DNA of 64,000 bases from NCBI GenBank assembly GCA_964534045.1, contig CAZHNO010000001.1:224621-288620 (forward strand). Direction: 5' to 3'. The translations under genes were made by a program, and so were the position numbers. The notes under the pieces were generated by a model that worked only from the letters and a program-made list of their open reading frames with translations, searched no databases and was not told where the DNA came from. The DNA comes from an uncultured archaeon. GTDB taxonomy: Archaea > Iainarchaeota > Iainarchaeia > Iainarchaeales > JAAZKV01. Positions 4,452 through 29,025 of the stretch are shown here, one piece after another (position 1 is the stretch's first letter; the number at the start of each line of letters is the position of its first letter).

Positions 4452-5783
4452 ATGCGTGCTCAAGGAACAATTGAATATTTAGTTATTATTGCTGTTGTTG
4501 TGGTTGTTGCATTAATTGTTGTGGGTTTGCTAGTAACTTTAATGGATTCGGGCGGAGATATTTCTGGAACAAGCAATCAAATTAATTATAATACACAAAC
4601 TCTCGCTTTAAATGACTATATTGTTTCAACTGATGGAAACTTTTTATTAGAAATAAAGTCAAATGAAGTGGGAAACATAACAATAGATAACGTGTCTATT
4701 GATAATGAAGAACAAGATTTTACAACAAACAATACAATCAACCTTGGACAAGAAAGATTAATAAAAATAGAATCTAGCACAACATGTGAAGAAGGGCAAA
4801 CTGTGACAGCACAAACAATCACAATAACCTATACTTCAGCAAACGGATTAACAAAAAAACAAATTTACGAAAATGTATCAATTCCTTGTCAAAATTATAC
4901 AAATCCAAACCAAACCCAACTACTGGGTGGAACAACAACACAATCAGAAGAAGATGCAAGTTGTGATGATTATGCCACAACAGATGGAGAAGATATTACT
5001 GATGATGGAACATATTGCACGGCAGTGTTTTTATCAGATGGAACTTTTACCGCACTAACTTCATTTAACGCAGAAGTTCTTGTTGTTGCTGGTGGAGGCG
5101 GTGGTGGTGGACCAGTTCATGCAGGTGGTGGTGGAGCAGGCGGTCTTGTTTATGATGATTCTTATTCCATTTCTCCAGGAGAAATTGAAGTTGTTGTTGG
5201 AGCTGGTGGTGCTGGTGGTGAAGGATGGAACATAACAACGAGCCCGGGGGAGAATGGTTCAAATTCAATATTCGATTCTATTGAAGCAATTGGTGGTGGC
5301 GGTGGAGCATATTGGTATCAAGGTGCATCCACTGCAGGAATAGGTGGTTCTGGTGGTGGTGCTGCACCTGAGCCAGAGGCAGCAACTGGTGCTATAGGGA
5401 CGGATGGGCAAGGATATGCTGGTGGTGGATCTTATGGTAGTACTAATGCTGGTGGAGGCGGCGGGGCTGGAGAAGCTGGAGAAAAAGCAGTATCTGGAAA
5501 AGCTGGTGACGGTGGGGATGGTGTCGAATATGATATTTCAGGAGAATCTGTTTATTATGCTGGTGGAGGCGGCGGAGGTGTTCACGAAGGTACTGCTACT
5601 ATTGGCCAAGGTGGTTTAGGTGGTGGCGGTGATGGAGGCGGAAATACGGTTGGTACTGCAAATGGCAATGATGGAACTGCTAACACAGGAGGTGGCGGTG
5701 GAGGTGCAGGGGGGACATCAGGGAGTTCTTATGCTGGTGGTGCTGGAGGATCAGGAATAGTAATAATTAGATACTTAAAATAA
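4452..5783 (+). CDS. type IV pilin-like protein (class III signal peptide, QGTIEYL motif) with Gly-rich C-terminal domain
   Basis: N-terminus MRAQGTIEYLVIIAVVVVVALIVVGLL is an archaeal prepilin-type signal. The C-terminal ~250 aa are poly-Gly rich (GGGGGGGPVHAGGGGAGG...). The N-terminal ~163 aa are ~85% identical to the pilin-like protein at 31289. Confidence 0.6.
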   Translation: MRAQGTIEYLVIIAVVVVVALIVVGLLVTLMDSGGDISGTSNQINYNTQTLALNDYIVSTDGNFLLEIKSNEVGNITIDNVSIDNEEQDFTTNNTINLGQERLIKIESSTTCEEGQTVTAQTITITYTSANGLTKKQIYENVSIPCQNYTNPNQTQLLGGTTTQSEEDASCDDYATTDGEDITDDGTYCTAVFLSDGTFTALTSFNAEVLVVAGGGGGGGPVHAGGGGAGGLVYDDSYSISPGEIEVVVGAGGAGGEGWNITTSPGENGSNSIFDSIEAIGGGGGAYWYQGASTAGIGGSGGGAAPEPEAATGAIGTDGQGYAGGGSYGSTNAGGGGGAGEAGEKAVSGKAGDGGDGVEYDISGESVYYAGGGGGGVHEGTATIGQGGLGGGGDGGGNTVGTANGNDGTANTGGGGGGAGGTSGSSYAGGAGGSGIVIIRYLK

Positions 5784-6626: not shown

Positions 6627-8285
6627 TTATTTAAAGTATTTGTTCCCATTGTAAGCATTTTTGTACTCTTCACTTTTTTCCAATTGATCTGGAACTCTTT
6701 TATATTTTGACAAAGGATCTTTTGCTTTTCCTTTCCAATTTGTTTTAAATTCACTCCATGAAACAGAGTATTGTTTTTGTACTTTATCTCTATAAAGTTC
6801 TGGAACAACATTGAATGCACAGAAAGGAACTATTCTTCCATCAGGCATTGAATAATGAATATTACACCTTTCTACCCTTTGCTGGTCATAATTATATGGG
6901 TCCATAAAGTGCATCATCCCAATAAATAAAGAGTTTGTATGGAATTCCCCAAGCGCAGAATAATCATGTTTTATTAGTGCATTAAACAATAGTTTTGCTA
7001 AGTTAATATTTTTTGGAGCTTTTTTTAAATTAATAAAAGAATTTATTTTTAATAATAATTTTGCTGATTCTATTTTTTTATTTGAACCATTTTTTATTGC
7101 TTCTGCTCTTTCTTTTAAAAAAGCAAATAATCCATCTACATCAACAAACTCTGGCAAGGGCATTATTTTGTTTTTTTCTTTATCTAAGAACACATATGTT
7201 GCTGCTCCGCAAGCAAAGTGATTGTCTAGTGAATATTGCACATTTTCTGTTAGTGCTTCAATAAAATCAGTAAATGATGAAACACAAGGTATTGCAAAAA
7301 AATCTTTTTCTTTTATTGCTCCTTTTGTTTGTTTTTCAATTTTTTCTATTGCCCCTGGAATAGTAATTCTTTGTTTTTCTCTTTGTGATTTTGGCATTCT
7401 TCCAACAAACGAAACTGGTTGGAAATCTATTCCTCTTATTACATCAATATTTTGTAATGCAAAATCAATTATATTCCCAATATCGTTATCATTTATTCCC
7501 TTAATTAAAGTTGGTACTAAAACTATCCCTATTCCTGCTTTTCTACATTCAGCAATTGTTTTTGGCATTTCATAATGATTTTTTGGATTCGTTTTCTTTG
7601 TTGTTCCATCAAAAGAAAGATATAAAGTTGCAACTCCTGCTTTTTTTAATTTTTGAGCATAACCCGGATTGAATGCAATAGTCATTCCTGTTGTGTTTAA
7701 TTGTATGTGTTCAAATCCTTCTTCTTTTGCAACTTTAATTATTTCAAATAAATCTTCTCTTAAAGTTGGTTCTCCTCCAGTAAATTGTATTGCATTACAT
7801 GGAACTGGACTTTCATTCTTCAAATTTTTTAGCATTAATCGTATTTGTTCAATACTTGGTTCATATATTGGGTCGCCTTCTTTTGCATAAAAGAAACAAT
7901 ACCAACAACTCAAGTCACATCTATTTGTTAGAGCAATATTTGCTAGTGCTGTGTGTGAGTGATGATTTAAACACAAACCACAATCAAATGGACAATTAGT
8001 TCCACTATTTTTTATTAAACCAACATTATTATTCAATAAGCCCCTATTTGGAGAAGCATATTTTCTTGCTCTTTCAAATTCTTTTTCTGATTCCCAATAC
8101 ATTTCATCAAAGATTCCATGTTCTGGACAATTTCTTTTTATGTAAACTTTTCCTTTTTTTGCATATATTTCAGCTTCAAGAGTTTTTTTACACTCTGGAC
8201 AAATAGAACGTGTTTTATAAGGCAATTTTTTTCCATACGTGTCTGTAACTACACTTCGTTTATTTTTTTCCAAAATAAAAGACAT
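6627..8285 (-). CDS. radical SAM protein with N-terminal zinc-ribbon (large archaeal-type, function unassigned)
   Basis: CPECKK...NCPEHG zinc ribbon, then CPFDCGLC, then the canonical CDLSCWYC (CxxxCxxC) with FTGGEPTL glycine-rich SAM motif. Conserved C-terminal DGRIVPFCAFNVV region. Confidence 0.7.
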   Translation of the reverse strand: MSFILEKNKRSVVTDTYGKKLPYKTRSICPECKKTLEAEIYAKKGKVYIKRNCPEHGIFDEMYWESEKEFERARKYASPNRGLLNNNVGLIKNSGTNCPFDCGLCLNHHSHTALANIALTNRCDLSCWYCFFYAKEGDPIYEPSIEQIRLMLKNLKNESPVPCNAIQFTGGEPTLREDLFEIIKVAKEEGFEHIQLNTTGMTIAFNPGYAQKLKKAGVATLYLSFDGTTKKTNPKNHYEMPKTIAECRKAGIGIVLVPTLIKGINDNDIGNIIDFALQNIDVIRGIDFQPVSFVGRMPKSQREKQRITIPGAIEKIEKQTKGAIKEKDFFAIPCVSSFTDFIEALTENVQYSLDNHFACGAATYVFLDKEKNKIMPLPEFVDVDGLFAFLKERAEAIKNGSNKKIESAKLLLKINSFINLKKAPKNINLAKLLFNALIKHDYSALGEFHTNSLFIGMMHFMDPYNYDQQRVERCNIHYSMPDGRIVPFCAFNVVPELYRDKVQKQYSVSWSEFKTNWKGKAKDPLSKYKRVPDQLEKSEEYKNAYNGNKYFK

Positions 8286-8380
8286 TTTTGCTCAACCCAA
8301 CTAATAAAACTAGCTATTAAGTGTTTAAAAATATTTCATATTAAAACAAAAGACTATTTGATTTCATAAAAAAGCTATTT

Positions 8381-11300
8381 TTATTTTATGCACTCATTTG
8401 ATGCTTTTTTAATTGAGTTAGCGATGGTTTTTCCTTCAGAATTCTCTTTTTCGTATAAATATTCCTCTGACCACCAATAAATTTCTCTATTGCCTAATTT
8501 AGATACACAAACGCTCTCATTAGAAACAGCATTCATTAAGCTTGTTATGCCATCAATTTGGTTTGTTATTGCTGCATCATTATATAACATTCCTTTTATT
8601 CCTTCCAATGGAATCAAACCTGATTCTTCAATTGAATTTGTTGTTTCAATTATCATTCCTTGTGGAAAAGCCAAACCATAAAATGCATCTGCTGGAGAAT
8701 AAGCCATTGTTTTTGTAAATACTTTTCCTGAATTTTCAGCAGGCAAGAAACCAAAACCATATTTATCTCCTATTCTAAAATCCGGTGTTTCGTTTATATA
8801 AGAAAGCATATTCGTTCCAAAAAAGTCTTTGCAATTTGGCATAGCTGTTAATAAAAATAAATTGTTTGTTGTTGCTTTCAAATCAGTTTTTTCTTTTTTT
8901 AGCCAATAATTCATTATTGATTCTTGCCCTTGATTTGCATTTAATTCAAATAATAATGGTGTTGCTATTGTTGGTGAAAAAATTGTTTTGCTCATTGAGT
9001 AATCCAACAAAACTGCTCTTTTTGAAGCAAAAGAATTTAAGTTCAAAATATTTGACTCTTTCTTTACATTTATTTTTGAAAAAGCATCCTTTTGATTATT
9101 TCCAAGAATCATTCCTTCAGCAATTTTTAATTCTGAACCACTATTCAATGCAGTGCCATAATATCTTCTATCATTTGCTGCATTCAAGCCAACTTTTCCA
9201 TCAAATGGAGTGTAATAAAAAGGACTATAATTTTCTTTTATTGGTTCTTTTAAATACAAATCAATAATAATATTTGAATTTGCTACCCCATTTTCTATTA
9301 TTGGAAATTCAGTAAAATCCGCAATTATTTTTACTGAATATAATCCAGCATCAGGAATAACAAAATCATATTCTGGTTTAAAATCAGTTGTTTCATTAGT
9401 GAAATAAAATTTCTTTGGTTGTTTAAAATAAATATACCATCCTTTTAGTGGGTCAGTAAAATTAGGGCTTGAATCAAGGAAAACTCGTGTATAATAATTT
9501 GTAAAATCACTTTGAAATTCTAAACCATAACCATCCCTTATCAATTGAACATCAAACTTTAATAAGTCAAGCATCTGTTCTGCACTACTTATCAATGGTT
9601 CATCAAAAAAGGAATCATAATATTCAGGCACAATTGCTTCTTGTGAAGAGTGATAATAAATCGCTGGTTTTCCATCATAATAGCGAGTTGTTAAAGGTAA
9701 GAAACATGAAGCTTCTTGTTGTAAAGCAAACTCTGTAGGAGTCATTCTTGTTAGTGCAAGCATTGCATAATTTTGTGGACAATTAGTTGCTGCTGAACTA
9801 ACAAACTCATTTAAAACGCCTAATTTTTTGGTTAATAAAATTGAGAATTGTGTTGCATCCAAATAATTTTCTTTTGCTGTTTCTGAATTAATTGCATCCC
9901 ACTTCCAATCCAAAATTATTTTTGGCAAAGCTTCTTTTCCAGTATCTCCAATCAAAGAAGCTTTTTCACAAGTAGCATTTGATTCACTTGAATAATCTTT
10001 TCTTGGTTTGACATTTACTTTAAAGTGATATTTTTGTTCAATTAATTCAACACTATCATCAGGAATATTAAAAGGACCAAATTCACCAGTAACATTCATT
10101 GTTGGAGAATGAATGTGCTTTTCTGCATTCAATGAAACTGTAGCATAAGTATTTTCTTTTATTCCAGCATTAGAAAATATTACTCCAACTTCTTGTTTAT
10201 CAAAAACTCCAAAAACTTGTGGATCAGTGAAAGACCAATAAGCTAAAACATTTGGATTTGATACAACAACTTTTTTTGCATCTTGTAACAAATTAATTTT
10301 ATAATCAACTAATTTTAATTTTACTCTGTTATCACAATCTTCTAATAAATTTGCTTCACTAAAAAATAAATTATTTTTTTTATTTTTGTTTTCTTCAAGG
10401 TTACCAAATACAGAAACATATAATCCTTGCATAGTGTTTTCTGTAGTATAAACTCCCCCATCATATGCTCCATTCACAAAACCATTACTAATTAATGTTC
10501 CAATCATTCCAACTAATTTTTCTTTATCATATTCTCCAAAATCTGCTGGAATGTTTAAAGAATCTAGATAAGTTGAAGCATCACTAGAAAGTTTCTCTAA
10601 CTCCGACAAATGTTTTGCAGCTTCAATTGCAGCATCCAAACTAGTATTAAAATTTGCTAATCCTAGTTGTAATTCATACAACACATCTGTCATTTCTGTA
10701 AACTTTGTCATAGCATTTATCAAATCACTCAAATAATTTGCATTCAATGCTTTGTATAATTCCCAGGCTTGATAAATATTATTTAGTGTTGATAATAGAT
10801 TAGCTATTTTTGCTATATTTGCTACTGTATTACTTTGGGCTGAAGCTATTGCAGTAATCGCAAATTCAGAAGATGCAATGAACATTGGACACATACAACC
10901 AGCATTACAATATGTACCATTACAACACGAAGCAAAATAAGACATTGCTGTTGCTTTTGCCAAAACCATTTCTGTTTGTGCTTCTGTTAAACTTGTTTGT
11001 ATTATTGTGGCTTTTGTTTCTAACACTCCTATTTGTGTTAATATTTGTTGCATTAGTTGTGCTATTGCAATTATTAATTCTTCTTCAGATGCTTCGGAAT
11101 CATCTTGCAAAGTAGTTAAATCATCTAAAGTTTCTAAATGTTTTTTTAGAGAATTATCTAAAACCATTTGTGCATTATCTGCATCACTTTTTGCTAAAAG
11201 CAAGTATTCATAAGCTTCAAAATCTTCTTTACTAGATGTTGACAAATCATTTATTGCAGCTGATTCAAGAGCTAAATCCAAATAATCAGATAAAGAAGTT

Positions 11301-13390
11301 AAATTATCTTTTAGCTCAATTAACATTTCATTTGTTTCCTCAGCATTTTCTCTAGCGGATTCTACATCAATTGAACTATTTTTTGCAGTAAGTGCTTCTA
11401 ATTGTTGATACAAACTATACAACTGACTAGCAGTGGCAACAAGTTGAGTAACATCAGCAGCATAAGTTTTTGTTGTTCCATTTGCAACCAACATTGATTT
11501 TAGTGATAATGATGAACTTCCCATTGCCGGAGCACATGATGCTGACAAATTAGTAGCACTTGTTACTGCAGCAGTTGCGGTATCAACATTAGTTGATAGT
11601 ATTATTGCATCTGCAGATAGTGCAGAAATGCTAGTAACCAAACTTAGTATTTGACTTGCTAATTGAGTTTTTTGTGAAGTATCCAAATCACCAAGTGAAT
11701 CTTCAACTTCTTTTAATGATTCTATCGCGTCATTTAATTCATCTAATGTTTCATTAATATAACCATCAAATTCTTTTCCTTCTAAATAAGCTCTTTTTAT
11801 TTTTTCATTTTCTTGTATTGATGTTGAATATGCTGTGCTTCTAACTGAATCAATATAAGGAATGGTTTTGAAAAACATTGATTGGTATAAACCATTTCCT
11901 GCATATCTTTCTGGATTGTTGTATAAATCATTAGTCCAGTTTTTTGAATTAGTGAACGTTCCTGTTAGTGGTAAACCTGAACCAATTTCTGCGCCTAGTG
12001 AACTTTCATACAAATTACAAATACTTGAATCAATTTCTATTTCTTCAGATAATTCATTATTCATTACTCTAATAGAATCTCTTGAACCCCTTTCAAATAA
12101 AGAAATTGAAAATTTATCAGGAACTAATAATTCATTTGTTGGTTTTACAAAAATTTCTTTTTCCCCAACAAAAGTCTTGTTTATTCCTGGCAAAGAAGCA
12201 TGCACTGTTAAACCATAAATTCCAGCCAAATCAACTCTGTTAATAGTAATTGTTTTTGTTGGAGAAGATTTTGTTAAAGTAAAAGCTGATGTGTTTAGTT
12301 CAATTATTCCTTCTTCTGCTCCTCCGGAACAACCAGCATCATTGTTACACAAAAAAATATTTATTTTTTCTGAATGACATTTACTTGAATTAATTGTTAT
12401 TGTTGCAGAATCATTTTCATTTTCTATTATTGCATCAACAACATCAATTTTTATACATTGTTCTAAATTTTCATTTGCTACTTCAAAATTTATTTTTTGC
12501 TCAGAATTGTCAATTTTTAATATAACAGAAAACTTTCCTTTTTCACCTTTTTTATTTGCTAAAGGAACATAATAAATTATTGCTTCATAATCACCAATAT
12601 TTGGGGCTGAATAAACTGATAATTCATCAGGAGTTAACAAAGAACCTTTTCCATTAGAAAAAATTATTTCTACATTTCCAATTCTTTCACTACCCCATTG
12701 AACACTTGCTTTCAAATCAGAGTAAGTTTCACAAGCAACCCTTAATTTTATTGGAGCTTCTAATAAGCCAGCATGAGTAGAATCAGAAAAAAATCCTTTA
12801 TTTACTAACAAACAACCCGTGCCAATAAATTCTTCAAAAAATATTTGATAAGGAATTTGTATTGTCATTACTTCAGAACCATCTTCTGATTCAAGAGTAA
12901 TAACAAAATTAAATTCAAAAAAATTCCCATCAACTAACTCTGAGTCAATTCCCAAATCAGCAAAATCAACTGTAAAAGTTACTGAACCATCTTCATTAAT
13001 TATAATAAATTCTGATGAAATGTTTGCAACAATTACCCCCTCACTGTTTGTTATCACCACATTAGTTGGTTTTAATTGTACTCCACCAGCATCCATTCTA
13101 AGCGTAATATTTCTAGAACTATCTTGTCCAGCATTAGTTATTATTGGCCTTCCAGGATTAGAAAAAGTATCAACTAATTCTCCATTAATTGTTAAGCTTC
13201 CTGTAAAAGCAATATCATTTTGATCTGGACTAGTTATTTTTATTCTATTAGTGCCTTGTGAAGGAAAAGCCAATAAGGCAATTAATAAAATAACTATTAT
13301 TGCAACAACTATTCCAATAATTATTCTCTTATCTGGTAAAGGACTTCCTGCTTTAGGTTCCTCTCTGTTATAATAACTTTCAACCTGCAT
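8381..13390 (-). CDS. giant membrane-anchored surface protein (1669 aa)
   Basis: N-terminal signal-anchor helix (IIIGIVVAIIVILLIALLAF). The first ~550 aa are beta-rich Ser/Thr/Asn-rich extracellular sequence. Residues ~560-900 are S/T/A/L-rich alpha-helical low complexity containing a Cys cluster CCNGTYCNAGCMCP. The remainder is a large C-terminal domain. No catalytic motif recognised. Confidence 0.6.
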   Translation of the reverse strand: MQVESYYNREEPKAGSPLPDKRIIIGIVVAIIVILLIALLAFPSQGTNRIKITSPDQNDIAFTGSLTINGELVDTFSNPGRPIITNAGQDSSRNITLRMDAGGVQLKPTNVVITNSEGVIVANISSEFIIINEDGSVTFTVDFADLGIDSELVDGNFFEFNFVITLESEDGSEVMTIQIPYQIFFEEFIGTGCLLVNKGFFSDSTHAGLLEAPIKLRVACETYSDLKASVQWGSERIGNVEIIFSNGKGSLLTPDELSVYSAPNIGDYEAIIYYVPLANKKGEKGKFSVILKIDNSEQKINFEVANENLEQCIKIDVVDAIIENENDSATITINSSKCHSEKINIFLCNNDAGCSGGAEEGIIELNTSAFTLTKSSPTKTITINRVDLAGIYGLTVHASLPGINKTFVGEKEIFVKPTNELLVPDKFSISLFERGSRDSIRVMNNELSEEIEIDSSICNLYESSLGAEIGSGLPLTGTFTNSKNWTNDLYNNPERYAGNGLYQSMFFKTIPYIDSVRSTAYSTSIQENEKIKRAYLEGKEFDGYINETLDELNDAIESLKEVEDSLGDLDTSQKTQLASQILSLVTSISALSADAIILSTNVDTATAAVTSATNLSASCAPAMGSSSLSLKSMLVANGTTKTYAADVTQLVATASQLYSLYQQLEALTAKNSSIDVESARENAEETNEMLIELKDNLTSLSDYLDLALESAAINDLSTSSKEDFEAYEYLLLAKSDADNAQMVLDNSLKKHLETLDDLTTLQDDSEASEEELIIAIAQLMQQILTQIGVLETKATIIQTSLTEAQTEMVLAKATAMSYFASCCNGTYCNAGCMCPMFIASSEFAITAIASAQSNTVANIAKIANLLSTLNNIYQAWELYKALNANYLSDLINAMTKFTEMTDVLYELQLGLANFNTSLDAAIEAAKHLSELEKLSSDASTYLDSLNIPADFGEYDKEKLVGMIGTLISNGFVNGAYDGGVYTTENTMQGLYVSVFGNLEENKNKKNNLFFSEANLLEDCDNRVKLKLVDYKINLLQDAKKVVVSNPNVLAYWSFTDPQVFGVFDKQEVGVIFSNAGIKENTYATVSLNAEKHIHSPTMNVTGEFGPFNIPDDSVELIEQKYHFKVNVKPRKDYSSESNATCEKASLIGDTGKEALPKIILDWKWDAINSETAKENYLDATQFSILLTKKLGVLNEFVSSAATNCPQNYAMLALTRMTPTEFALQQEASCFLPLTTRYYDGKPAIYYHSSQEAIVPEYYDSFFDEPLISSAEQMLDLLKFDVQLIRDGYGLEFQSDFTNYYTRVFLDSSPNFTDPLKGWYIYFKQPKKFYFTNETTDFKPEYDFVIPDAGLYSVKIIADFTEFPIIENGVANSNIIIDLYLKEPIKENYSPFYYTPFDGKVGLNAANDRRYYGTALNSGSELKIAEGMILGNNQKDAFSKINVKKESNILNLNSFASKRAVLLDYSMSKTIFSPTIATPLLFELNANQGQESIMNYWLKKEKTDLKATTNNLFLLTAMPNCKDFFGTNMLSYINETPDFRIGDKYGFGFLPAENSGKVFTKTMAYSPADAFYGLAFPQGMIIETTNSIEESGLIPLEGIKGMLYNDAAITNQIDGITSLMNAVSNESVCVSKLGNREIYWWSEEYLYEKENSEGKTIANSIKKASNECIK

Positions 13391-13463: not shown

Positions 13464-14429
13464 TTAATCTCTATCAATAATTTTTGTTTTGTATTCTGAT
13501 TTTTTATTCTTCAACAAAACAATTCTTGAATTTTCTTTCTCACTCTCAAATTTATAAGAAGGCATTTTTTCTAACAATTTCTTTGAAAAATCTTGAACTT
13601 CAAAATGCGTAGGCATATTTTCTTTTTTCAATCTTTTACGCGAAAGACCAAGCCACATATAACTTTTGATTTCAACAAAATCTGCTTCTACTACTTCTAA
13701 AAGCTCAGCAAACTCTTCCAAATCTTTTTCTGAATCATTCATTCCTTTTATCAAAGTCAAACGAATTACTATTCGTGTTGGGAGTAACTTCAATAATGCA
13801 AGTGTCTTCAAATAATTCTTCCAACCATTTTTTTCTGTATTGCAAGAAATTTTTCTATAAATTTTTTCGTTTGGTGCTTGCATTGAAACGTATAATTGAG
13901 TTGGTAATGCATTTTCTTTCCATAATTTAATTAAAGCATTAGGGTTTTGTCCATTTGTTACTAAGAAAACTGTTTCTGTTGCAGGGCGAGCTTTCAATAA
14001 TTTAATTAATTTTGATAAGTGTTTGTAAAGGGTTGGTTCTCCACTCAATGAAATTGCCCAGTGTTTTTGTTGCATTGATTTATCAACAACTTCTTTATCA
14101 AGCGAACCATAAAAACCTTGTAATAATTTTTTTCTCTCTTTAACTAAATTTTCAATCATTTTTTCAGGGTTAACTTCTTTTCTTTTTTGCAACGACATAT
14201 ATTCTTTTGGACGCCAACAAAAAATACAAGCATTATTACACCAAAAAGTTGTGGGAGCAATTTGATGACAAGAAAGAGTGTCAGCTCCATAAAAGTCTTG
14301 TTTGTAACATTTTTCTTTTCCATTAGTGCGAAGAGCTTTCTTATTCCACTCACAAATCTGAATACTTGAATGTTCAAAAAAACCATATTGCTTTTTTTTG
14401 AAATCATTTATTAAAGAATCCAATTTCAT
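13464..14429 (-). CDS. taw1: tRNA 4-demethylwyosine synthase Taw1 (TYW1, radical SAM)
   Basis: QICEWNKKAL..CYKQDFYG..CHQIAPTTFWCNNACIFCWRP..AISLSGEPTLY..LVTNG..PTQLYVSMQAP..IKGMND..FVEIKSYMWLG aligns along the full length with archaeal Taw1 (e.g. MJ0257). Confidence 0.75.
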   Translation of the reverse strand: MKLDSLINDFKKKQYGFFEHSSIQICEWNKKALRTNGKEKCYKQDFYGADTLSCHQIAPTTFWCNNACIFCWRPKEYMSLQKRKEVNPEKMIENLVKERKKLLQGFYGSLDKEVVDKSMQQKHWAISLSGEPTLYKHLSKLIKLLKARPATETVFLVTNGQNPNALIKLWKENALPTQLYVSMQAPNEKIYRKISCNTEKNGWKNYLKTLALLKLLPTRIVIRLTLIKGMNDSEKDLEEFAELLEVVEADFVEIKSYMWLGLSRKRLKKENMPTHFEVQDFSKKLLEKMPSYKFESEKENSRIVLLKNKKSEYKTKIIDRD

Positions 14430-14481
14430 AAAAATTCAATAAAACAAAACTAATTTAAATAGAAAAAATCAAACATTAATA

Positions 14482-16029
14482 ATGAATAAAAAATTGAATA
14501 ATATTGCACAAGGAACAATTGAATATTTAGTAATTATTGCAATTATTATTGTCATTGGTTTACTTGTCGTTCAATTATCTTTGAGTTTATTTGATTCTGA
14601 AAGTGTTTCTAACACTAGTAATAAAATTGGTTCCAAAATTGGTTCTGGGAGCATTAGTATTTTAGAAGCAGTTGCTGATGATAATTCTTTAGTAATTGCT
14701 TTATCTTCAATAGGAACAGATGGAATAAATTTAACCAAAATTACTATTGATGGAGTAGAAAATTATTATGAAAATCAATACTTACTTAATGCTCGTAGTT
14801 TTATATTAACAGAATTATCAAACAATTGTGCCTGTTCTAGTATGCAGAGTTCTAGAACTTGTTCATTTCAATTCACTTACACTACAAGAAATGGTTTAAC
14901 AAAAACAACAGACCCAATAAACGTTACTATTAATTGTACAACAAACATAAATCAAGAAAATCCAAATTATACTCAACCAACAATACAAGATTGTTATGAT
15001 TTAACAGAAGATCCAATCCAAATTTGTACGCTTAGTGATTTGAATAAAATCAGAGATGATTTAAGTGCAAATTATCAACTAATGAACAATATTGATGCTT
15101 CATCTACAAACACTTGGAATAATGGAGAAGGTTGGGAACCAATCGGAGATGGAGATGAATATTTTACTGGAACATTTGATGGACAAAATTTTGAGATAAG
15201 TAATCTTTACATAAATCGAACAAATACTTATGTTGGCATGTTTGGTTGGACAAGTGGCCCAATTTCTAATGTTGGTTTAACTGATGTAAATATCACTGGA
15301 AGTAGTGGAATTGGCGGAATTTCTGGAAGAAATCATTCAACAATAAGTAATTCAAATGTTTCTGGAAATATTAATGGAAATAATAAAATTGGAGGCATTA
15401 GCGGTTTTAATTTTAGTACAATAACAACTTCACATTCAAGTGCAAACATTACTGGAACTTATGAAATTGGAGGAATATCTGGGTACATTGATGGAGGGAC
15501 AATTACTTTATCTTATTCAACAGGAAATATTACTGGAACTGGTGATAATATAGGTGGAATTTGTGGGCGTAATGAAACTGGTTCAATAACAAAATCATAT
15601 TCAACAGGGAATATCTTTGGAGAAGACAAAATTGGTGGTTTACTTGGTTATAATGATGGTGGAACAATAAGTAATTCTTATTCCACTGGAAATATAACTG
15701 CCAGTGGCAGTAGTGTTGGTGGGTTGATTGGCTCAACAACAGGTGGAACAATTAATTATTCTTATTCCATTGGAGAAGCAAGTGGAGTTAGTAATGTTGG
15801 CGGATTAGTTGGAAATAATATTTTAGGAACAGCAACAAATTCATATTGGAATGTTACAACATCAAACTTAGACACATCAGCACTCGGAGAAGGAAAAACA
15901 ACATCTGAGATGAAAACACAATCAACATTTACTAATGGAAGCTGGGATTTTGACACTATTTGGCAAATTCAAGAAGACACAACATATCCATATTTAATAG
16001 ATAATATTCAAAACCCATTACCCCAATAA
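14482..16029 (+). CDS. type IV pilin-like protein (class III signal peptide) with C-terminal GLUG-type repeats
   Basis: N-terminus MNKKLNNIAQGTIEYLVIIAIIIVIGLLVV. The C-terminal half is tandem ~22-aa repeats of the form IGGISG.N.STI.NS.S.GNITG / VGGLIG...GGTI.YSYS.G. Confidence 0.6.
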   Translation: MNKKLNNIAQGTIEYLVIIAIIIVIGLLVVQLSLSLFDSESVSNTSNKIGSKIGSGSISILEAVADDNSLVIALSSIGTDGINLTKITIDGVENYYENQYLLNARSFILTELSNNCACSSMQSSRTCSFQFTYTTRNGLTKTTDPINVTINCTTNINQENPNYTQPTIQDCYDLTEDPIQICTLSDLNKIRDDLSANYQLMNNIDASSTNTWNNGEGWEPIGDGDEYFTGTFDGQNFEISNLYINRTNTYVGMFGWTSGPISNVGLTDVNITGSSGIGGISGRNHSTISNSNVSGNINGNNKIGGISGFNFSTITTSHSSANITGTYEIGGISGYIDGGTITLSYSTGNITGTGDNIGGICGRNETGSITKSYSTGNIFGEDKIGGLLGYNDGGTISNSYSTGNITASGSSVGGLIGSTTGGTINYSYSIGEASGVSNVGGLVGNNILGTATNSYWNVTTSNLDTSALGEGKTTSEMKTQSTFTNGSWDFDTIWQIQEDTTYPYLIDNIQNPLPQ

Positions 16030-18818: not shown

Positions 18819-20045
18819 ATGAAAAAAGTATTTTTTGTTGTGTTGTTAGTTTTATTATTGCTTTTACTTTTTGGTTGCTCTAGTCCAGAAGAAATAGCAA
18901 AACAAAATTCAACAATAAATAATTTTATTGAAGAAAATCCTGATGTTGAATTTAAGAGTATAAAAAAATTGTCTGAAGATGATTTTAGAGAAGAAAGAGA
19001 TTTTTGGGAGAGTAATTGTGATCAAAATATTTCTTTAGCAGATTATTACAAAATTATTTTTGAGGGGGCTGAAGTAAAATTAACTACTCTTTTTGAAACA
19101 AGTCAAATGAAATTAATTTGTGGAGTAATAGAAGGAAAGGCTGAAACAAAAGCAATAAATATCAACACAAATTCTAATACAAAAAACGATAATCCAAATG
19201 ACATGCCAGAACAAGCTGATGATGAAAATGCTTTGCCAAATAATGAAACTCATTTAACTGAAGAGCCAGAAGAATGTGAAGAAACTTGGATTTGCACTGG
19301 TTGGAGTGATTGTGTTGTTGGAAAACAAACAAGGAATTGTCAAAAAATAGTTGATTGTGGATATAATTCAGAAGAAGAAATTGAGCGAAGTTGTGATAGT
19401 GTATCAACTTGCACTGAAGATTGGAGTTGTACAGAATGGAGTTATTGCGAAGGCGCAAAATGCAATTCCTATGGCTGTGTCGGAGGAATCAAAACAAGAA
19501 CATGCTTAGATTTAGCAAATTGTGGAACAACTGAAAATAAGCCAGAAGAGTCCCAAAATTGTGAATGGGAAATAACTTGTGTAAGTAATGATAACACCTG
19601 TCATGAAGGATGCATATACCAAAATGATAATGATTGTGATTGTATTACTGATTCTGATTGCTTAACTAATGATTCAGATGCTGCGGCAATTTGTGACTCC
19701 GGATATTGCATTGATTCTAGTGTGCCCCAACCACTTCAAATTGGAGGAAACTTGGATGCATTCTGCACAGCATATATGAATAACTGCCAAGAATCCTCAA
19801 CGATTGATTTAATCGGAGGCACTAATGGTTTTGATAATTTGCAAGCACAGGTGTATGAACCAACTAATAATCCAGGGGAATGTAATATCAAAGTTCTTTG
19901 GGATAATGGAAACCAATACATTGTAAATTTTTGGGTTGATATCGGAGACTCTGTAGAGATTTGCAAACATAATGTTCCAATTTATTTTTATAATTCAGCA
20001 AATGAAATTTGCGGATCATTTCCTTGTTATGGGGAATTCCCTTAA
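18819..20045 (+). CDS. secreted Cys-rich (lipo)protein with repeated C-x-W-S-x-C modules
   Basis: Signal peptide with lipobox-like LLLLFGCSS. Repeated modules CTGWSDCVVGKQTRNCQKIVDCG / CTEWSYCEGAKCNSYGCVGGIKTRTCLDLANCG. 38 Cys overall. Confidence 0.5.
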   Translation: MKKVFFVVLLVLLLLLLFGCSSPEEIAKQNSTINNFIEENPDVEFKSIKKLSEDDFREERDFWESNCDQNISLADYYKIIFEGAEVKLTTLFETSQMKLICGVIEGKAETKAININTNSNTKNDNPNDMPEQADDENALPNNETHLTEEPEECEETWICTGWSDCVVGKQTRNCQKIVDCGYNSEEEIERSCDSVSTCTEDWSCTEWSYCEGAKCNSYGCVGGIKTRTCLDLANCGTTENKPEESQNCEWEITCVSNDNTCHEGCIYQNDNDCDCITDSDCLTNDSDAAAICDSGYCIDSSVPQPLQIGGNLDAFCTAYMNNCQESSTIDLIGGTNGFDNLQAQVYEPTNNPGECNIKVLWDNGNQYIVNFWVDIGDSVEICKHNVPIYFYNSANEICGSFPCYGEFP

Positions 20046-24797: not shown

Positions 24798-24950
24798 GCC
24801 CTGATAGTCTAGTGGTTAGGATGCACCCCTGTCAACTCGCGCAAGCGAGGTAGGAAATCCAAAGTTTTCTTTGGGCTACCCTACACCTTTCTTTTCCTAA
24901 AAGAAAGGGGCGGTTCGGGTGCGACTCGGGTTCGAGCCCCGGTCAGGGCG
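24798..24950 (+). tRNA. tRNA-Asp (anticodon GTC) with an ~81-nt intron at 37/38 (approx. 24835..24915)
   Basis: Acceptor GCCCTGA/TCAGGGC, D-arm GTCT-AGTGGTTA-GGAT, anticodon stem CACCC/GGGTG flanking CTGTCA|intron|C, T-arm TCGGG-TTCGAGC-CCCGG, discriminator G. The intron folds into several hairpins including a CTCGC-GCAA-GCGAG tetraloop hairpin. Confidence 0.6.
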
Positions 24951-25002
24951 TGAATTAGTCAATTTATCAACATTTAATAACTTTCAAAACACAATCTTAT
25001 TT

Positions 25003-25725
25003 ATGCCTAAGAAAAAAGATATTTTTCGAAACAAAAGGTCAAGAGCAAAATTCGTTGCAAAAAAGATTGGAAATCTTGGTTTTTATGAAGCAATTACTAT
25101 TGCTTCTACAAGAGTTTATTTTAGAAAAAAATTATCTCCAATAAGTAAGTGGAAATTAGTTGGAAATAATGCTGGCGCAACTTTTTTTGAATTACCTAAT
25201 GGAAAAAAAATTGTTGTAAAACCAGATAATTGGAAGCCTTATCCTTTTAGTAAATTTGGTGTGAAAAATGGACAAAGAAGTTTAATTATTGTCCTTGAAA
25301 AAGTTTTAAGAAAAAAAATTAGGTTTGAAGTCCCATTAGGAAGAATAAAAACTGGTGACGGAAATTTTTATTTTGTTAGTCAAGCTGTAAAAGGAATGCA
25401 ATTAAACAAATGGTTAGCCAATGCAAACACAATTGACGCAATCAAAGTTGCACGAAATATGGGCGAATACTTAGCTGACATGCACAATAAAGGTGTTGTT
25501 CATTTAGAGGCAAGTGCTCCAAATTGGATTATTGATGGCTTGAAGCCCACACTAGTTGATGCAAAATATTTGGCTTTCAAAGAAGAGTATGATTGGCGTG
25601 GACAAAGCGGAAAAAAATATGCTTGGGAAGACGAATTAGTTAAAAATGTTAGAAGTAGTGCTATTTGGTTACCAAAAACAACTCAACAAATATTTTTGAA
25701 TGCGTATAATGAAAAGCGAAAATAA
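25003..25725 (+). CDS. atypical protein-kinase-like (RIO/Bud32-type) protein
   Basis: MHNKGVVHLEASAPNWIIDG..LVDAKYL resembles the catalytic loop and DFG region. The track ORF N-terminus overlaps the tRNA-Asp 3' exon, so I trimmed to MPKKKDIF. Confidence 0.35.
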   Translation: MPKKKDIFRNKRSRAKFVAKKIGNLGFYEAITIASTRVYFRKKLSPISKWKLVGNNAGATFFELPNGKKIVVKPDNWKPYPFSKFGVKNGQRSLIIVLEKVLRKKIRFEVPLGRIKTGDGNFYFVSQAVKGMQLNKWLANANTIDAIKVARNMGEYLADMHNKGVVHLEASAPNWIIDGLKPTLVDAKYLAFKEEYDWRGQSGKKYAWEDELVKNVRSSAIWLPKTTQQIFLNAYNEKRK

Positions 25726-27792: not shown

Positions 27793-27934
27793 GGAATTAT
27801 TTCAGCGCATCAAAATGTTCAAGAGAACATTGAGAAAGATGAAATAATCAAGGAATTATTTCGGCGCAATTATATTTTCCCGAGGAAATATAATAAAGCG
27901 AAATTATGGAATAATTTCGCAGCAATTATATTTT
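27791..27934. repeat. three imperfect direct repeats (~27 nt, GGAATWATTTCRGCGCAATTATATTTT) between convergent genes; the last unit includes a 9-bp inverted repeat
   Basis: Units at 27791..27809, 27850..27878, 27908..27934. Hairpin CGAAATTAT-GGA-ATAATTTCG at 27899..27919 overlaps the stop codon of the minus-strand radical SAM gene. Confidence 0.4.
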
Positions 27935-29025
27935 AAAAAGTCTAAATCTTTTTCATTAATTATTTTTTTATCTAAAAGTTTTTGAACTTCTGGAGCAATT
28001 CTTTCCATTTCTCTCAAAAGGTGTTTTATTGTTACACAAACTTCTTCAATTCCTTTTTTTGGCCATGTTGGATAATGATTTGAGTACAAACATCTGCCGC
28101 CACAAAGAGCATAATCAGAACATGAAAGACAAGGTTCTTGTATTTTCAATTTATTCGGAAGAGTGTTTGGTAAAGTGTGTTTTATGTCACCCAAATATTT
28201 TTCTCTAATGCCTTGCATTATTGGACAAGCACTAATTCTTCCATTAGGAAGAATAGTAAAATTTCCAACCCCTGAGCCACATCTTAATGAGTAGGCCTTG
28301 CCAAATAGAATTGTATTTAGAACACCAATGAAAGGGTAAAAACGCAATAAATGCCCTTTTTTTGCTTCATTTAACCAATATTCAGCTAATTTTGTTATGT
28401 CTTTGTTGTATTCTATGCTCCATTTTGAGAAGTTTCTTTTCTCATAATCATGCCACATATTCGCATCCAATTGCCAATGAACACTATTGAAAGGAAACTC
28501 TGTGTTTTCCACGAGAAAAGTAATGTCTTTGTAAAAATTGGTTGGTTCTTCTACCGCCATTCGAGCAATTACCTCTCCATTAAAACCATTTTTTTTAATT
28601 AATTTTAAATTAGAAATTACTTTTTCATAAGTGCCTTCATTTCTATTCTTATTAGTGGTTTCTTTATCACCATCAATTGAAACCAAAATAGTATGAAATT
28701 TATTTACAAATTTTTTATCTAATTTATCTAACAAAGTTCCATTTGTTTGAATTAAAAAATTGTCAACAATTCCAAGTATTTGTTTCGAAGACATTATACT
28801 TTCAATAAATGGAATGTTAAGCAATGGTTCTCCACCATAAAAAATAACACTTATTGGTTTATCATTATCTTTTGAAAAAAATTTTGCTAATTGCCCAGGC
28901 ATATAATTGGGGGCGGTTGGAACATTTTCAAATTTAATATCCGACTCTGGTTCATCAAAAGCTTTTTCACAACAATAAGCACAGCACAAATTGCACTCAG
29001 GGGTTGTAACAATGTGGTAAATCAT
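27904..29025 (-). CDS. radical SAM / SPASM-domain enzyme (anSME-like maturase)
   Basis: N-terminal CNLCCAYC (CxxxCxxC) in a TTPECNLCCAYCCEK context resembling the anSME SGCNLKCTYC motif. GGEPLL motif. C-terminal Cys-rich SPASM region CGSGVGNFTILPNGRISACP...CLSCSDYALCGGRC. Confidence 0.7.
   Translation of the reverse strand: MIYHIVTTPECNLCCAYCCEKAFDEPESDIKFENVPTAPNYMPGQLAKFFSKDNDKPISVIFYGGEPLLNIPFIESIMSSKQILGIVDNFLIQTNGTLLDKLDKKFVNKFHTILVSIDGDKETTNKNRNEGTYEKVISNLKLIKKNGFNGEVIARMAVEEPTNFYKDITFLVENTEFPFNSVHWQLDANMWHDYEKRNFSKWSIEYNKDITKLAEYWLNEAKKGHLLRFYPFIGVLNTILFGKAYSLRCGSGVGNFTILPNGRISACPIMQGIREKYLGDIKHTLPNTLPNKLKIQEPCLSCSDYALCGGRCLYSNHYPTWPKKGIEEVCVTIKHLLREMERIAPEVQKLLDKKIINEKDLDFLKYNCCEIIP

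What the first reader, a model, noticed from the sequence alone, without database searches (positions are those of the whole stretch)
14482..16029. Pilin-like protein with GLUG-type tandem repeats
The C-terminal half is ~12 tandem 20-25-aa repeats (IGGISG.N.STI.NS.S.GNITG / VGGLVGNN) resembling the GLUG motif seen in bacterial surface adhesins and IgA-protease-like proteins. They sit on an archaeal prepilin N-terminus, directly adjacent to the giant surface-protein locus.
Basis: partly seen in the sequence, partly recalled or inferred. Interest (0 to 1): 0.5.

Follow-up and report, generated by a model that had tools for sequence, protein, structure and literature searches.

The report
Archaeal pilin carrying a GLUG beta-helix
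This gene encodes a two-part surface protein of a tiny DPANN archaeon, an archaeal type IV pilin "handle" fused to a GLUG-repeat beta-helix that most likely acts as a sticky binding module; it is one member of a large family of such pilins with interchangeable heads, so it is a tidy but not surprising find.

Summary
Pfam GLUG (PF07581) matches at E 4e-17 in 7 stretches. The repeats number 7-8 with a 24-28 aa period, not about 12 of 20-25 aa.

AlphaFold2 (pLDDT 91.8) gives three parts:
- an N-terminal helix (aa 12-37);
- a beta-sandwich (aa 58-152);
- a capped right-handed beta-helix (aa ~183-505).

There is no HExxH motif and no conserved polar residue cluster, so it is not a protease and probably not an enzyme.

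The pilin module (invariant QGTIEYL) defines a family of at least 1194 clusters in Iainarchaeota-type DPANN MAGs. It is always N-terminal. In a 74-protein sample it carried GLUG (31 proteins), beta-propellers, lectin-like and Ig-like modules. Two paralogues in this window carry Gly_rich_2 and Laminin_G_3.

The gene sits in a conserved block next to a ~1650-aa coiled-coil membrane protein, with a Taw1 gene between them. No pilus machinery lies in the window.

Best reading: a modular (minor or tip) pilin adhesin, the archaeal counterpart of bacterial modular pilins. It is a new member of a known kind, of modest interest.

The parts
14454..14461 (+). TTTAAATA, a TATA-box-like element about 21-28 nt upstream of the ATG. 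It implies a leaderless transcript. This is inferred only.
   Evidence: Read directly from the sequence. A similar TTTAAAT lies at the same distance upstream of the homologous pilin gene in L078. In a 30% GC genome such matches are common, so the evidence is weak.
14482..16029 (+). Whole gene: a 515-aa bimodular pilin with a GLUG beta-helix (stop codon included).
   Evidence: ORF list. An identical protein, P0001, is in the NCBI collection on a 314-kb contig. AF2 model mean pLDDT 91.8, pTM 0.79.
14482..14508 (+). Leader peptide aa 1-9 (MNKKLNNIA). The predicted prepilin-peptidase cut is after Ala9, giving Gln+1 and Glu+5.
   Evidence: The sequence itself, plus family alignments in which Q10 G11 T12 I13 E14 Y15 L16 are invariant and position -1 is A or G. 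The cleavage itself is inferred.
14509..14592 (+). Hydrophobic alpha-1 helix of the pilin module (aa 10-37): membrane anchor and filament-core helix.
   Evidence: AF2 helix 12-37. It aligns to the N-terminal helix of the Aap and P. arsenaticum pilins.
14593..14637 (+). Low-confidence Ser/Asn-rich connector, aa 38-52.
   Evidence: pLDDT below 50 for aa 38-52.
14638..14937 (+). Pilin head: beta-sandwich aa 53-152, with conserved Cys116/118/127/152 and a TYT..NGLTK motif.
   Evidence: AF2 strands 58-152. Foldseek hits to archaeal pilins 6w8u, 6nav, 8tib, 8fk7 and 8q30. C118 and C152 are invariant in 17 homologues. The module is shared at 34-36% identity with two in-window paralogues.
14938..15027 (+). 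Inter-module linker aa 153-182, including the conserved DC..DPI.IC pair (Cys171, Cys182).
   Evidence: Alignment A1. Other domains (Big_7, Flg_new_2, PKD-like) are inserted at this point in homologues.
15028..15237 (+). N-terminal cap and first rungs of the beta-helix, aa 183-252 (resembles the C-terminal part of Peptidase_M26_N).
   Evidence: Sub-threshold Pfam PF05342 hit over aa 187-295 (15.8 bits). AF2 helices 184-215 followed by strands. Conserved across 120 homologues.
15238..15876 (+). GLUG repeat core aa 253-465: 7 clear units plus 1 degenerate unit of 24-28 aa, forming the rungs of a right-handed parallel beta-helix.
15877..16026 (+). C-terminal cap aa 466-515 (NSYW...GKTTSEM...WDFDTIW...YPYL).
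   Evidence: W456, W488, W494, Y502 and P503 are at least 90% conserved in 120 homologues. AF2 pLDDT above 90.
4452..5783 (+). Paralogous modular pilin: the same pilin module with a Gly_rich_2 cargo.
   Evidence: Pfam Gly_rich_2 E 6.6e-27 and Class_IIIsignal 21.3 bits. N-module 34% identical to the target.
31289..32506 (+). Paralogous modular pilin: the same pilin module with a Laminin_G_3 (ConA-like lectin) cargo. The likely start is ATG 31289, not the TTG at 31226.
   Evidence: Pfam Laminin_G_3 E 1.4e-14 and Class_IIIsignal 24.6 bits, above the cut-off. Motif scan and alignment.
8381..13390 (-). Syntenic neighbour: a 1669-aa membrane-anchored protein with a ~440-aa alpha-helical stalk. Any functional link to the pilin is inferred only from conserved neighbourhood.
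   Evidence: No Pfam hit. Twelve full-length homologues at 37-46% identity, all annotated hypothetical. Homologues sit next to pilin-module genes in L002, L052, L071 and L078 and on the P0266 contig. The AF2 model is of low confidence (pLDDT 62).

Best explanation
The gene encodes a bimodular archaeal type IV pilin.

Shown or predicted from sequence:
- A class III signal peptide and hydrophobic alpha-1 helix (aa 1-37) plus a small beta-sandwich head (aa 53-152) form a pilin 'carrier'.
- A ~30-aa linker joins it to a ~320-aa capped right-handed beta-helix built from GLUG repeats, the 'cargo'.

Inferred mechanism:
- The precursor is inserted in the membrane.
- A PibD/FlaK-type prepilin peptidase cuts after Ala9.
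- The alpha-1 helix lets the subunit join a type IV pilus-like filament, either as a low-abundance or tip subunit or in a short membrane-proximal stub.
- The non-enzymatic beta-helix is thereby displayed outward, where it binds a protein or glycan ligand on a surface or a partner/host cell.

It is one of many paralogous pilins of Iainarchaeota-type DPANN archaea that reuse the same carrier with different binding modules.
For: Architecture:
- AF2 model pLDDT 91.8 with helix 12-37, sandwich 58-152 and beta-helix ~232-457 plus caps.

Cargo:
- GLUG E 4.3e-17, 7 stretches.
- In S. pneumoniae IgA1 protease this beta-helix is a non-catalytic domain. The N-terminal domain that contains it binds the substrate's Fab, and the helix gates the active site (PMC7695701).
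- There is no HExxH motif.
- The columns at least 90% conserved across 120 homologues are almost only Gly or aromatic, with no polar cluster.

Carrier:
- The N-module profile hits only archaeal T4 pilins in the PDB, and Foldseek hits five archaeal pilus subunits.
- QGTIEYL is invariant.
- The profile finds 1194 clusters, with the module always at the N-terminus of proteins mostly 400-900 aa long.

Modularity:
- Of 74 full-length members from GTDB genomes, 31 carry GLUG, 10 SBBP, 8 Reg_prop, 7 Big_7, 5 Laminin_G_3, 3 Flg_new and 2 FG-GAP.
- Three paralogues in this window carry three different cargoes.
- The nearest pilin module, L001 (46% identity), carries FG-GAP. Nearest neighbours share the cargo class only 69% of the time against 50% at random.
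- The syntenic slot between Taw1 and DUF2666 holds a GLUG pilin here and on the P0266 contig, an SBBP pilin in L002, and nothing in L079/L080.

Link to filament machinery:
- In L055 a GLUG pilin abuts a T2SSE secretion ATPase.

Precedent:
- Bacterial modular pilins are tip adhesins, and the catalogue includes a pilin + Peptidase_M26_N architecture (PMC8179133).
- GLUG proteins are suspected adhesins in Methanimicrococcus (PMC9723798).
Against: - No pilus ATPase, platform protein or prepilin peptidase lies in the 64-kb window. Only 1 of 77 related loci has a secretion ATPase within 6 kb.
- Pfam Class_IIIsignal is below its threshold for this protein itself, and position -2 is Ile rather than the usual Lys/Arg.
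- No ligand, no processing and no filament has been observed. The binding function rests on analogy with one characterised relative and on the absence of catalytic signatures.
- Whether a 320-aa C-terminal cargo sits at the tip, along the filament body, or never enters a filament cannot be decided from sequence.
Confidence: 0.6

Rival explanations
1. Surface display without a pilus. The class III signal and alpha-1 helix serve only to export the protein and hold it in the membrane, or in a short bindosome-like assembly as proposed for Sulfolobus sugar-binding proteins. The GLUG helix then acts as a cell-surface adhesin or receptor.
For: - The modular pilin genes are scattered among housekeeping genes, not in pilus operons.
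- There are many paralogues per genome: 5 or more loci from contig CAZKBG010000001 and 8 from MAG JBBSVX.
- Archaeal class III-signal proteins that are not filament subunits are known. This is established knowledge about the bindosome, and it is mentioned in 10.64898/2026.04.22.720090.
Against: - The carrier is not just a signal and anchor. It includes a conserved beta-sandwich that matches the globular domain of assembled archaeal pilins.
- One relative is adjacent to a T2SSE ATPase.
Confidence: 0.25
2. Pilus- or surface-borne enzyme. The beta-helix is a polysaccharide lyase or hydrolase, like pectate-lyase-fold enzymes and phage tailspikes, that degrades a host or matrix glycan.
Against: - No conserved Asp, Glu, Lys, Arg or His columns appear in 120 homologues.
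- No CAZyme-type Pfam hit was found.
Confidence: 0.07
3. An IgA-protease-like (M26) peptidase.
For: Sub-threshold hits to Peptidase_M26_N (15.8 bits) and NCBIfam ZmpA (18 bits against a cut-off of 3000). Structural neighbours are IgA1 proteases.
Against: - The similarity is confined to the non-catalytic N-terminal beta-helix.
- The protein ends right after the helix.
- There is no HExxH motif and no M26 catalytic-domain hit.
Confidence: 0.01
4. A structural component of the cell envelope, an S-layer-associated spacer that works with the neighbouring 1669-aa coiled-coil protein, rather than an adhesin.
For: The neighbourhood with the giant membrane protein is conserved across genomes whose giant-protein homologues are only 32-46% identical to the window's.
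Against: - The cargo at the same slot is swapped for a beta-propeller or is absent in relatives. That fits a variable binding function better than a fixed structural role.
- Housekeeping genes (Taw1, a radical-SAM gene) are interspersed, so the synteny may simply be inherited.
Confidence: 0.05

Closest known systems
Bacterial modular type IV pilins (S. sanguinis PilB with a vWA module, PilC with a lectin module; catalogued architectures include pilin + Peptidase_M26_N, IPR012902-IPR011493) - Raynaud et al. 2021, PMC8179133
   Same: - An N-terminal pilin module is joined by a short linker to a bulky C-terminal module that is not specific to pili.
- The family shows many alternative cargoes on one carrier, including lectin-like (Laminin_G_3) ones and the M26 N-terminal region to which GLUG helices belong.
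   Different: - The carrier here is an archaeal-type pilin (QGTIEYL class III signal, beta-sandwich head like the Aap and Pyrobaculum pilins), not the bacterial N-methyl-Phe alpha/beta pilin.
- The cited analysis searched the bacterial-type pilin signature (IPR012902), and its text never mentions archaea.
- No experimental evidence exists for tip location or adhesion here.
N-terminal beta-helix of M26 IgA1 metalloproteases (S. pneumoniae 7jgj, G. haemolysans 7uvk) and BACOVA_03286 (3n6z)
   Same: - In IgA1 protease the helix is a non-catalytic part of the substrate-binding N-terminal domain.
   Different: - There is no protease middle or C-terminal domain, no HExxH, and no G5 or LPXTG elements.
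- The helix is attached to a pilin instead.
- The ligand is unknown.
Archaeal type IV pilins of solved filaments (S. acidocaldarius Aap 8q30, S. islandicus 6nav/8tib, Pyrobaculum 6w8u/8fk7)
   Same: - An N-terminal hydrophobic helix followed by a beta-sandwich.
- These are the only PDB sequences hit by the N-module profile, and there are Foldseek hits with TM(target) 0.39-0.44.
   Different: - Those are 130-142-aa major pilins with no cargo.
- Sequence similarity is marginal (best E 8.7e-4).
- The present module has a disordered connector (aa 38-52) and four conserved Cys.
GLUG-motif 'adhesin-like' proteins of methanogens and other archaea (e.g. Methanimicrococcus blatticola, Methanosalsum zhilinae P0098)
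   Same: The same GLUG beta-helix with its N- and C-caps, at 45% identity over the module for P0098. They are regarded as putative adhesins of unknown function.
   Different: - Those use ordinary signal peptides and/or C-terminal anchors.
- Here the helix is carried on a pilin.
- P0117 shows an independent fusion to a different archaeal pilin N-terminus (PF07790).

Membership tests
GLUG motif proteins (Pfam PF07581) | Sequence match to the GLUG repeat model above the gathering score, in tandem copies | tested here: met
   61.7 bits against a cut-off of 20.5, E 4.3e-17, 7 stretches. 7-8 units of 24-28 aa in register.
GLUG motif proteins (Pfam PF07581) | The repeats form the rungs of a right-handed parallel beta-helix, as in 3n6z and the M26 IgA1-protease N-terminal domain | tested here: met
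   [not shown]
GLUG motif proteins (Pfam PF07581) | Repeats conserved in orthologues | tested here: met
   P0002 (83% identity) keeps all the units. Seventeen full-length archaeal homologues and 120 GLUG homologues align through the module.
Archaeal type IV pilins / class III signal peptide proteins | Class III signal peptide: a short polar leader, a small residue at -1, then a ~20-aa hydrophobic stretch (Pfam PF04021) | tested here: inconclusive
   By Pfam alone this protein scores 12.6 bits against a cut-off of 23.7. In its favour:
- the motif A|QGTIEYL with Glu+5 is invariant in the family;
- one in-window paralogue passes (24.6 bits);
- 21 of 74 members hit at E 1e-3 or better.
Position -2 is Ile, not Lys/Arg.
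Archaeal type IV pilins / class III signal peptide proteins | N-terminal alpha-helix followed by a beta-sandwich globular domain, like assembled archaeal pilins | tested here: met
   AF2 helix 12-37 and sandwich 58-152. Foldseek hits to 6w8u, 6nav, 8tib, 8fk7 and 8q30. The profile hits only 8q30, 6w8u and 6nav in the PDB.
Archaeal type IV pilins / class III signal peptide proteins | Processing by a PibD/FlaK/EppA-type prepilin peptidase | not testable with these tools
   Requires N-terminal sequencing or mass spectrometry, or an in vitro cleavage assay.
Archaeal type IV pilins / class III signal peptide proteins | Assembly into a filament by a secretion ATPase and platform protein; genomic association with that machinery | tested here: not met
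   No T2SSE, T2SSF or A24 peptidase was found among the ORFs of at least 150 aa scanned up to 58443, and a Walker-A motif scan of the whole window found none. Only L055 of 77 related loci has a T2SSE ATPase next to the pilin. Stand-alone pilin genes are common in archaea (PMC4858521), so this weakens the case but does not exclude membership. Assembly itself is not testable here.
Modular pilins (sensu Raynaud et al. 2021) | A pilin module plus an additional module that is not specific to pilus biology, joined by a linker | tested here: met
   Domain boundaries from AF2. The cargo is found widely without any pilin. The carrier is found with many other cargoes.
Modular pilins (sensu Raynaud et al. 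2021) | The bacterial N-terminal methylation motif IPR012902, used to define the published set | tested here: not met
   No N_methyl hit in Pfam or NCBIfam. The leader is of the archaeal type. So this is an archaeal analogue, not a member of the published bacterial set.
M26 IgA1-specific metalloendopeptidases | Catalytic zinc-binding HExxH domain (Peptidase_M26_C) | tested here: not met
   No HExxH in the sequence. No M26 catalytic-domain hit. ZmpA scores 18 bits against a cut-off of 3000.
Pectate-lyase-fold carbohydrate-active enzymes / tailspike depolymerases | A conserved cluster of acidic or basic catalytic residues on the beta-helix | tested here: not met
   [not shown]

The most novel reading that the evidence does not exclude
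Iainarchaeota-type DPANN archaea maintain a dedicated, lineage-specific pilin carrier (QGTIEYL helix plus Cys-stabilised sandwich). Binding modules are repeatedly swapped onto it: GLUG helices most often, then beta-propellers, lectins and Ig-like domains, even at the same chromosomal slot. Together with the conserved neighbouring ~1650-aa coiled-coil membrane protein, this repertoire forms the apparatus by which these ultrasmall cells recognise and attach to partner or host cells. It would be a variable 'pilus-tip adhesin library', analogous to what type IV pili do for episymbiotic Saccharibacteria.
Probability: 0.25. Interest if true: 0.6.

Novelty: new member of a known kind. Interest (0 to 1): 0.3.

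Why it matters
How DPANN archaea find and hold on to other cells is largely unknown, and these organisms are mostly uncultured.

This gene and its roughly 1200-cluster family give concrete, expressible candidates: compact pilin-borne binding modules with confident structure models. They also suggest that the 'modular pilin' strategy described for bacteria was adopted independently on an archaeal pilin scaffold.

The finding also gives the poorly understood GLUG repeat a clearer context, as a non-catalytic, surface-displayed beta-helix. By itself, though, the gene is an expected kind of surface protein, annotated in databases as 'GLUG motif-containing' or hypothetical. It does not challenge current views.

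Tried and rejected
- **DNA-level tandem repeats:** none in the repeat region. The repeats are ancient and diverged, not a recent expansion.
- **PDB sequence search with the whole protein:** no hit at E up to 1. Fold comparison was needed.
- **Word-indexed homologue search with the N-module alone:** only 2 hits, a limitation of the index. The exhaustive HMMER profile search then found 1194 clusters.
- **Exact look-up of P0001 and P0007 contigs:** not on record. The rest of the 314-kb source contig, and any pilus machinery on it, could not be inspected.
- **N-glycosylation sequon enrichment:** 17 sequons against 13.7 +/- 3.0 in shuffles, p about 0.17. Not significant.
- **Strict Walker-A regex for PilB/ArlI ATPases in 77 loci and the window:** nothing. 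A relaxed regex found one true T2SSE ATPase, in L055.
- **afdb50 fold search:** the library was not available.
- **AF2 of the neighbouring giant protein (aa 470-1669):** low confidence (pLDDT 62, pTM 0.31). Its Foldseek matches to ClyA-family pore-forming toxins (AhlB, SmhB, MakA) have TM 0.1-0.36 and rmsd above 20 A. I treat them as generic long-helix matches, not evidence.
- **IgA-protease reading:** rejected. There is no catalytic domain.
- **The 129-aa gene in the pilin slot of L079:** tested as a possible cargo-less pilin. It has no class III signal, so the slot is simply empty there.
Full report
**1. Observation**

The window has an ATG-to-stop ORF at exactly 14482..16029 (+), 515 aa. 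Its product is rich in Gly, Thr, Ser, Ile and Asn.

In my own register there are seven clear units beginning [IV]GG[IL], at aa 277, 303, 329, 357, 384, 412 and 439. One degenerate unit lies at aa 253. Spacings are 24-28 aa.

- Pfam finds GLUG (PF07581) at E 4.3e-17: 61.7 bits against a gathering score of 20.5, in 7 stretches.
- Periodicity is well above chance. The autocorrelation at lag 55 (two units) is 1.39, against a maximum of 0.42 in 1000 shuffles.
- There is no nucleotide-level tandem repeat.

'Directly adjacent to the giant surface-protein locus' is also imprecise. A Taw1/TYW1 gene (13464..14429, -; Wyosine_form plus Radical_SAM) separates the two, and they are divergently oriented.

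**2. What organism**

The window is archaeal chromosome. It holds:
- split RpoB and RpoA subunits, EF-2, EF-1alpha, RtcB and ribosomal proteins;
- Taw1 and DUF2666;
- an intron-containing tRNA;
- about 30% GC.

Relatives of the pilin module come almost only from MAGs named Candidatus Iainarchaeum ('ainarchaeum'), Ca. Forterrea or 'archaeon'. This points to Iainarchaeota/Diapherotrites-type DPANN.

**3. Anatomy**

An AlphaFold2 model built on 120 homologues is confident: mean pLDDT 91.8, pTM 0.79. It shows these segments:

| Residues | Feature |
|---|---|
| 12-37 | helix |
| 38-52 | disordered connector |
| 58-152 | beta-sandwich |
| 153-182 | linker, with a conserved Cys pair |
| 184-215 | helical cap |
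| ~232-457 | regular three-stranded rungs |
| ~470-505 | C-terminal cap |

*The cargo module*
- Foldseek agrees.
- In the pneumococcal enzyme this helix (residues 781-1070) is non-catalytic. The N-terminal domain containing it binds the Fab of the substrate, and the helix moves as a gate (PMC7695701).
- The present protein stops right after the helix and has no HExxH.
- Among 120 homologues, the columns that are at least 90% conserved are Gly, aromatic, Ile or Pro only.
- It is therefore not a protease, and most likely not an enzyme at all.

*The carrier module*
- Pfam's Class_IIIsignal model is below threshold for this protein (12.6 against 23.7 bits).
- In 17 full-length homologues, Q10-G-T-I-E-Y-L16 is invariant and the preceding residue is Ala or Gly. 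This gives the classic small residue at -1 and Glu at +5.
- A profile of the module hits exactly three PDB sequences, all archaeal type IV pilins. They are S. acidocaldarius Aap (E 8.7e-4, with the alignment running into the sandwich), the P. arsenaticum pilin and the S. islandicus pilin.
- Foldseek aligns the model's first ~150 residues to five archaeal pilus subunits.

**4. Family context**

An exhaustive profile search with the module finds 1194 clusters at E 1e-3 or better, and 136 at 1e-30 or better. The module is always N-terminal, in proteins mostly 400-900 aa long.

A scan of GTDB representative genomes returned 77 loci, with many copies per genome. Of 74 complete proteins extracted from them, Pfam finds:

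| Cargo | Proteins |
|---|---|
| GLUG | 31 |
| SBBP | 10 |
| Reg_prop | 8 |
| Big_7 | 7 |
| Laminin_G_3 | 5 |
| Flg_new | 3 |
| FG-GAP, NHL and others | 2 each or fewer |

All of these are extracellular binding-type modules.

The window itself has two more members. One is at 4452..5783 (Gly_rich_2) and one at 31289..32506 (Laminin_G_3). They share the carrier at 34-36% identity.

Carrier relatedness only partly tracks cargo:
- the nearest carrier, L001 (46% identity), bears FG-GAP repeats;
- nearest neighbours share cargo class in 69% of cases, against 50% expected at random;
- the in-genome paralogue P0007 keeps the carrier (73% and 60% identity) but has diverged in the helix (41%) and gained a Big_7 insert;
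- GLUG is also fused to a different archaeal pilin N-terminus (PF07790) in P0117.

**5. Neighbourhood**

No pilus ATPase, platform protein or prepilin peptidase is in the window. Only L055 among the 77 loci has a T2SSE ATPase beside a GLUG pilin.

The local gene order is conserved, however:

HMPTM-type radical SAM / ~1650-aa protein / Taw1 / [pilin slot] / DUF2666 / PAP2

The slot is filled differently in different genomes:
- a GLUG pilin here and on the P0266 contig;
- an SBBP pilin in L002;
- a truncated pilin in L078;
- nothing in L079 and L080.

On the other side of the large gene, the window has the Gly_rich_2 pilin. L071 and L052 have a Flg_new_2+GLUG pilin abutting the large gene there.

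The large protein has an N-terminal anchor and a ~440-residue helical stalk. It has no Pfam hit and only 'hypothetical' homologues. Its model is too poor for fold assignment.

The recurrent adjacency hints at a functional link. It could equally be inherited synteny, since housekeeping genes are interspersed.

**6. Mechanism**

*Shown or predicted from sequence:* the bimodular architecture, the non-catalytic GLUG helix, the archaeal pilin-like carrier, and the family-wide exchange of cargo.

*Inferred:* cleavage after Ala9; incorporation through the alpha-1 helix into a type IV pilus-like filament, at the tip or as a minor subunit; and ligand binding by the helix.

The closest functional precedent is the bacterial modular pilins. 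Examples are PilB-vWA and PilC-lectin, and a pilin-M26_N architecture has been catalogued (PMC8179133).

The main rival is membrane or bindosome-like display without a filament. Enzyme, protease and structural-envelope readings are much less likely.

**7. Novelty and verdict**

GLUG proteins, class III-signal adhesin-like proteins in archaea and modular pilins are all known. I found no description of this Iainarchaeota carrier family or of the GLUG-pilin fusion in the searched literature.

It is best rated a new member of a known kind. Interest is about 0.3.

The most novel reading that remains tenable is a swappable pilus-adhesin repertoire for DPANN host attachment. I give it about 25% probability.

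Noticed in passing
window 4452..5783 (+) and 31289..32506 (+): Two further modular pilins share the AQGTIEYLVIIA carrier. One carries a Gly_rich_2 domain and the other a Laminin_G_3 (ConA-like lectin) domain. The second is listed as starting at TTG 31226 but more likely starts at ATG 31289.
   Followed up: yes
window 8381..13390 (-): A 1669-aa protein with an N-terminal membrane anchor, a long alpha-helical stalk and no Pfam domain. It has 12 full-length homologues (37-46% identity), all annotated hypothetical. It repeatedly neighbours pilin-module genes in other genomes. The AF2 model is of low confidence, and its weak Foldseek matches to ClyA-type pore-forming toxins are not reliable.
   Followed up: partly
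window 29063..29911 (-) with 27904..29025 (-): A 282-aa protein consisting only of the [FeFe]-hydrogenase large-subunit C-terminal domain (E 3e-40), next to a radical-SAM gene. It may be one of the 'minimal' archaeal [FeFe] hydrogenases reported for DPANN lineages. The paper (PMC11216029) was seen in a search list only and was not read.
   Followed up: no
window 24798..24950 (+): Rfam finds a tRNA spanning 153 nt, presumably intron-containing. ARAGORN missed it. It overlaps the start of the GTG ORF at 24919..25725, which may therefore be mis-called.
   Followed up: no
P0057, P0067, P0068; L001:5833, L008:5932, L027, L037:5932, L052:91, L076: Many family members have a partial duplicate of the cleavage motif in an extended leader, for example 'NNKAQGTIAPSKRASIAQGTIEYL' and 'LIAQGTIEEFFGKKFNKKSIAQGTIEYL'. 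The motif sits ahead of the true QGTIEYL helix. Its significance is unknown; a decoy, a second processing site or a start-codon artefact are all possible. The window protein lacks it.
   Followed up: no
L055 5830..7770 (+) and 7850..10126 (-): In a Ca. Iainarchaeum MAG, a GLUG pilin lies tail-to-tail with a 758-aa T2SSE-family secretion ATPase (PF00437, 68.9 bits). This is the only link to filament machinery found among the 77 loci.
   Followed up: partly
L012:1476-1841, L014:4826-5137, L015:12305-12469: Small (~100-120 aa) proteins with an 'AQGAIEYLLIIG' class III signal lie near modular pilin genes. They are candidate major pilins of the same lineage. None is present in the window.
   Followed up: no
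L016 4125..10504; L027 231..5474; L026 1710..5495: Tandem arrays of two or three modular pilin genes. L016 has three GLUG pilins in a row. L027 has two non-GLUG pilins followed by a GLUG one. This suggests local duplication and cargo diversification.
   Followed up: no
window 18819..20045 (+): A 408-aa Cys-rich secreted protein with a lipobox-like N-terminus (LLLLFGCSS) and no Pfam hit. It is another uncharacterised surface protein close to the pilin gene.
   Followed up: no
L049 (CAYTIW010000030.1): One pilin-module locus sits in a MAG labelled 'uncultured Planctomycetales bacterium'. Its protein is identical in length and N-terminus to the one in archaeal contig L051, so this is probably a binning contaminant rather than a bacterial occurrence.
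   Followed up: no
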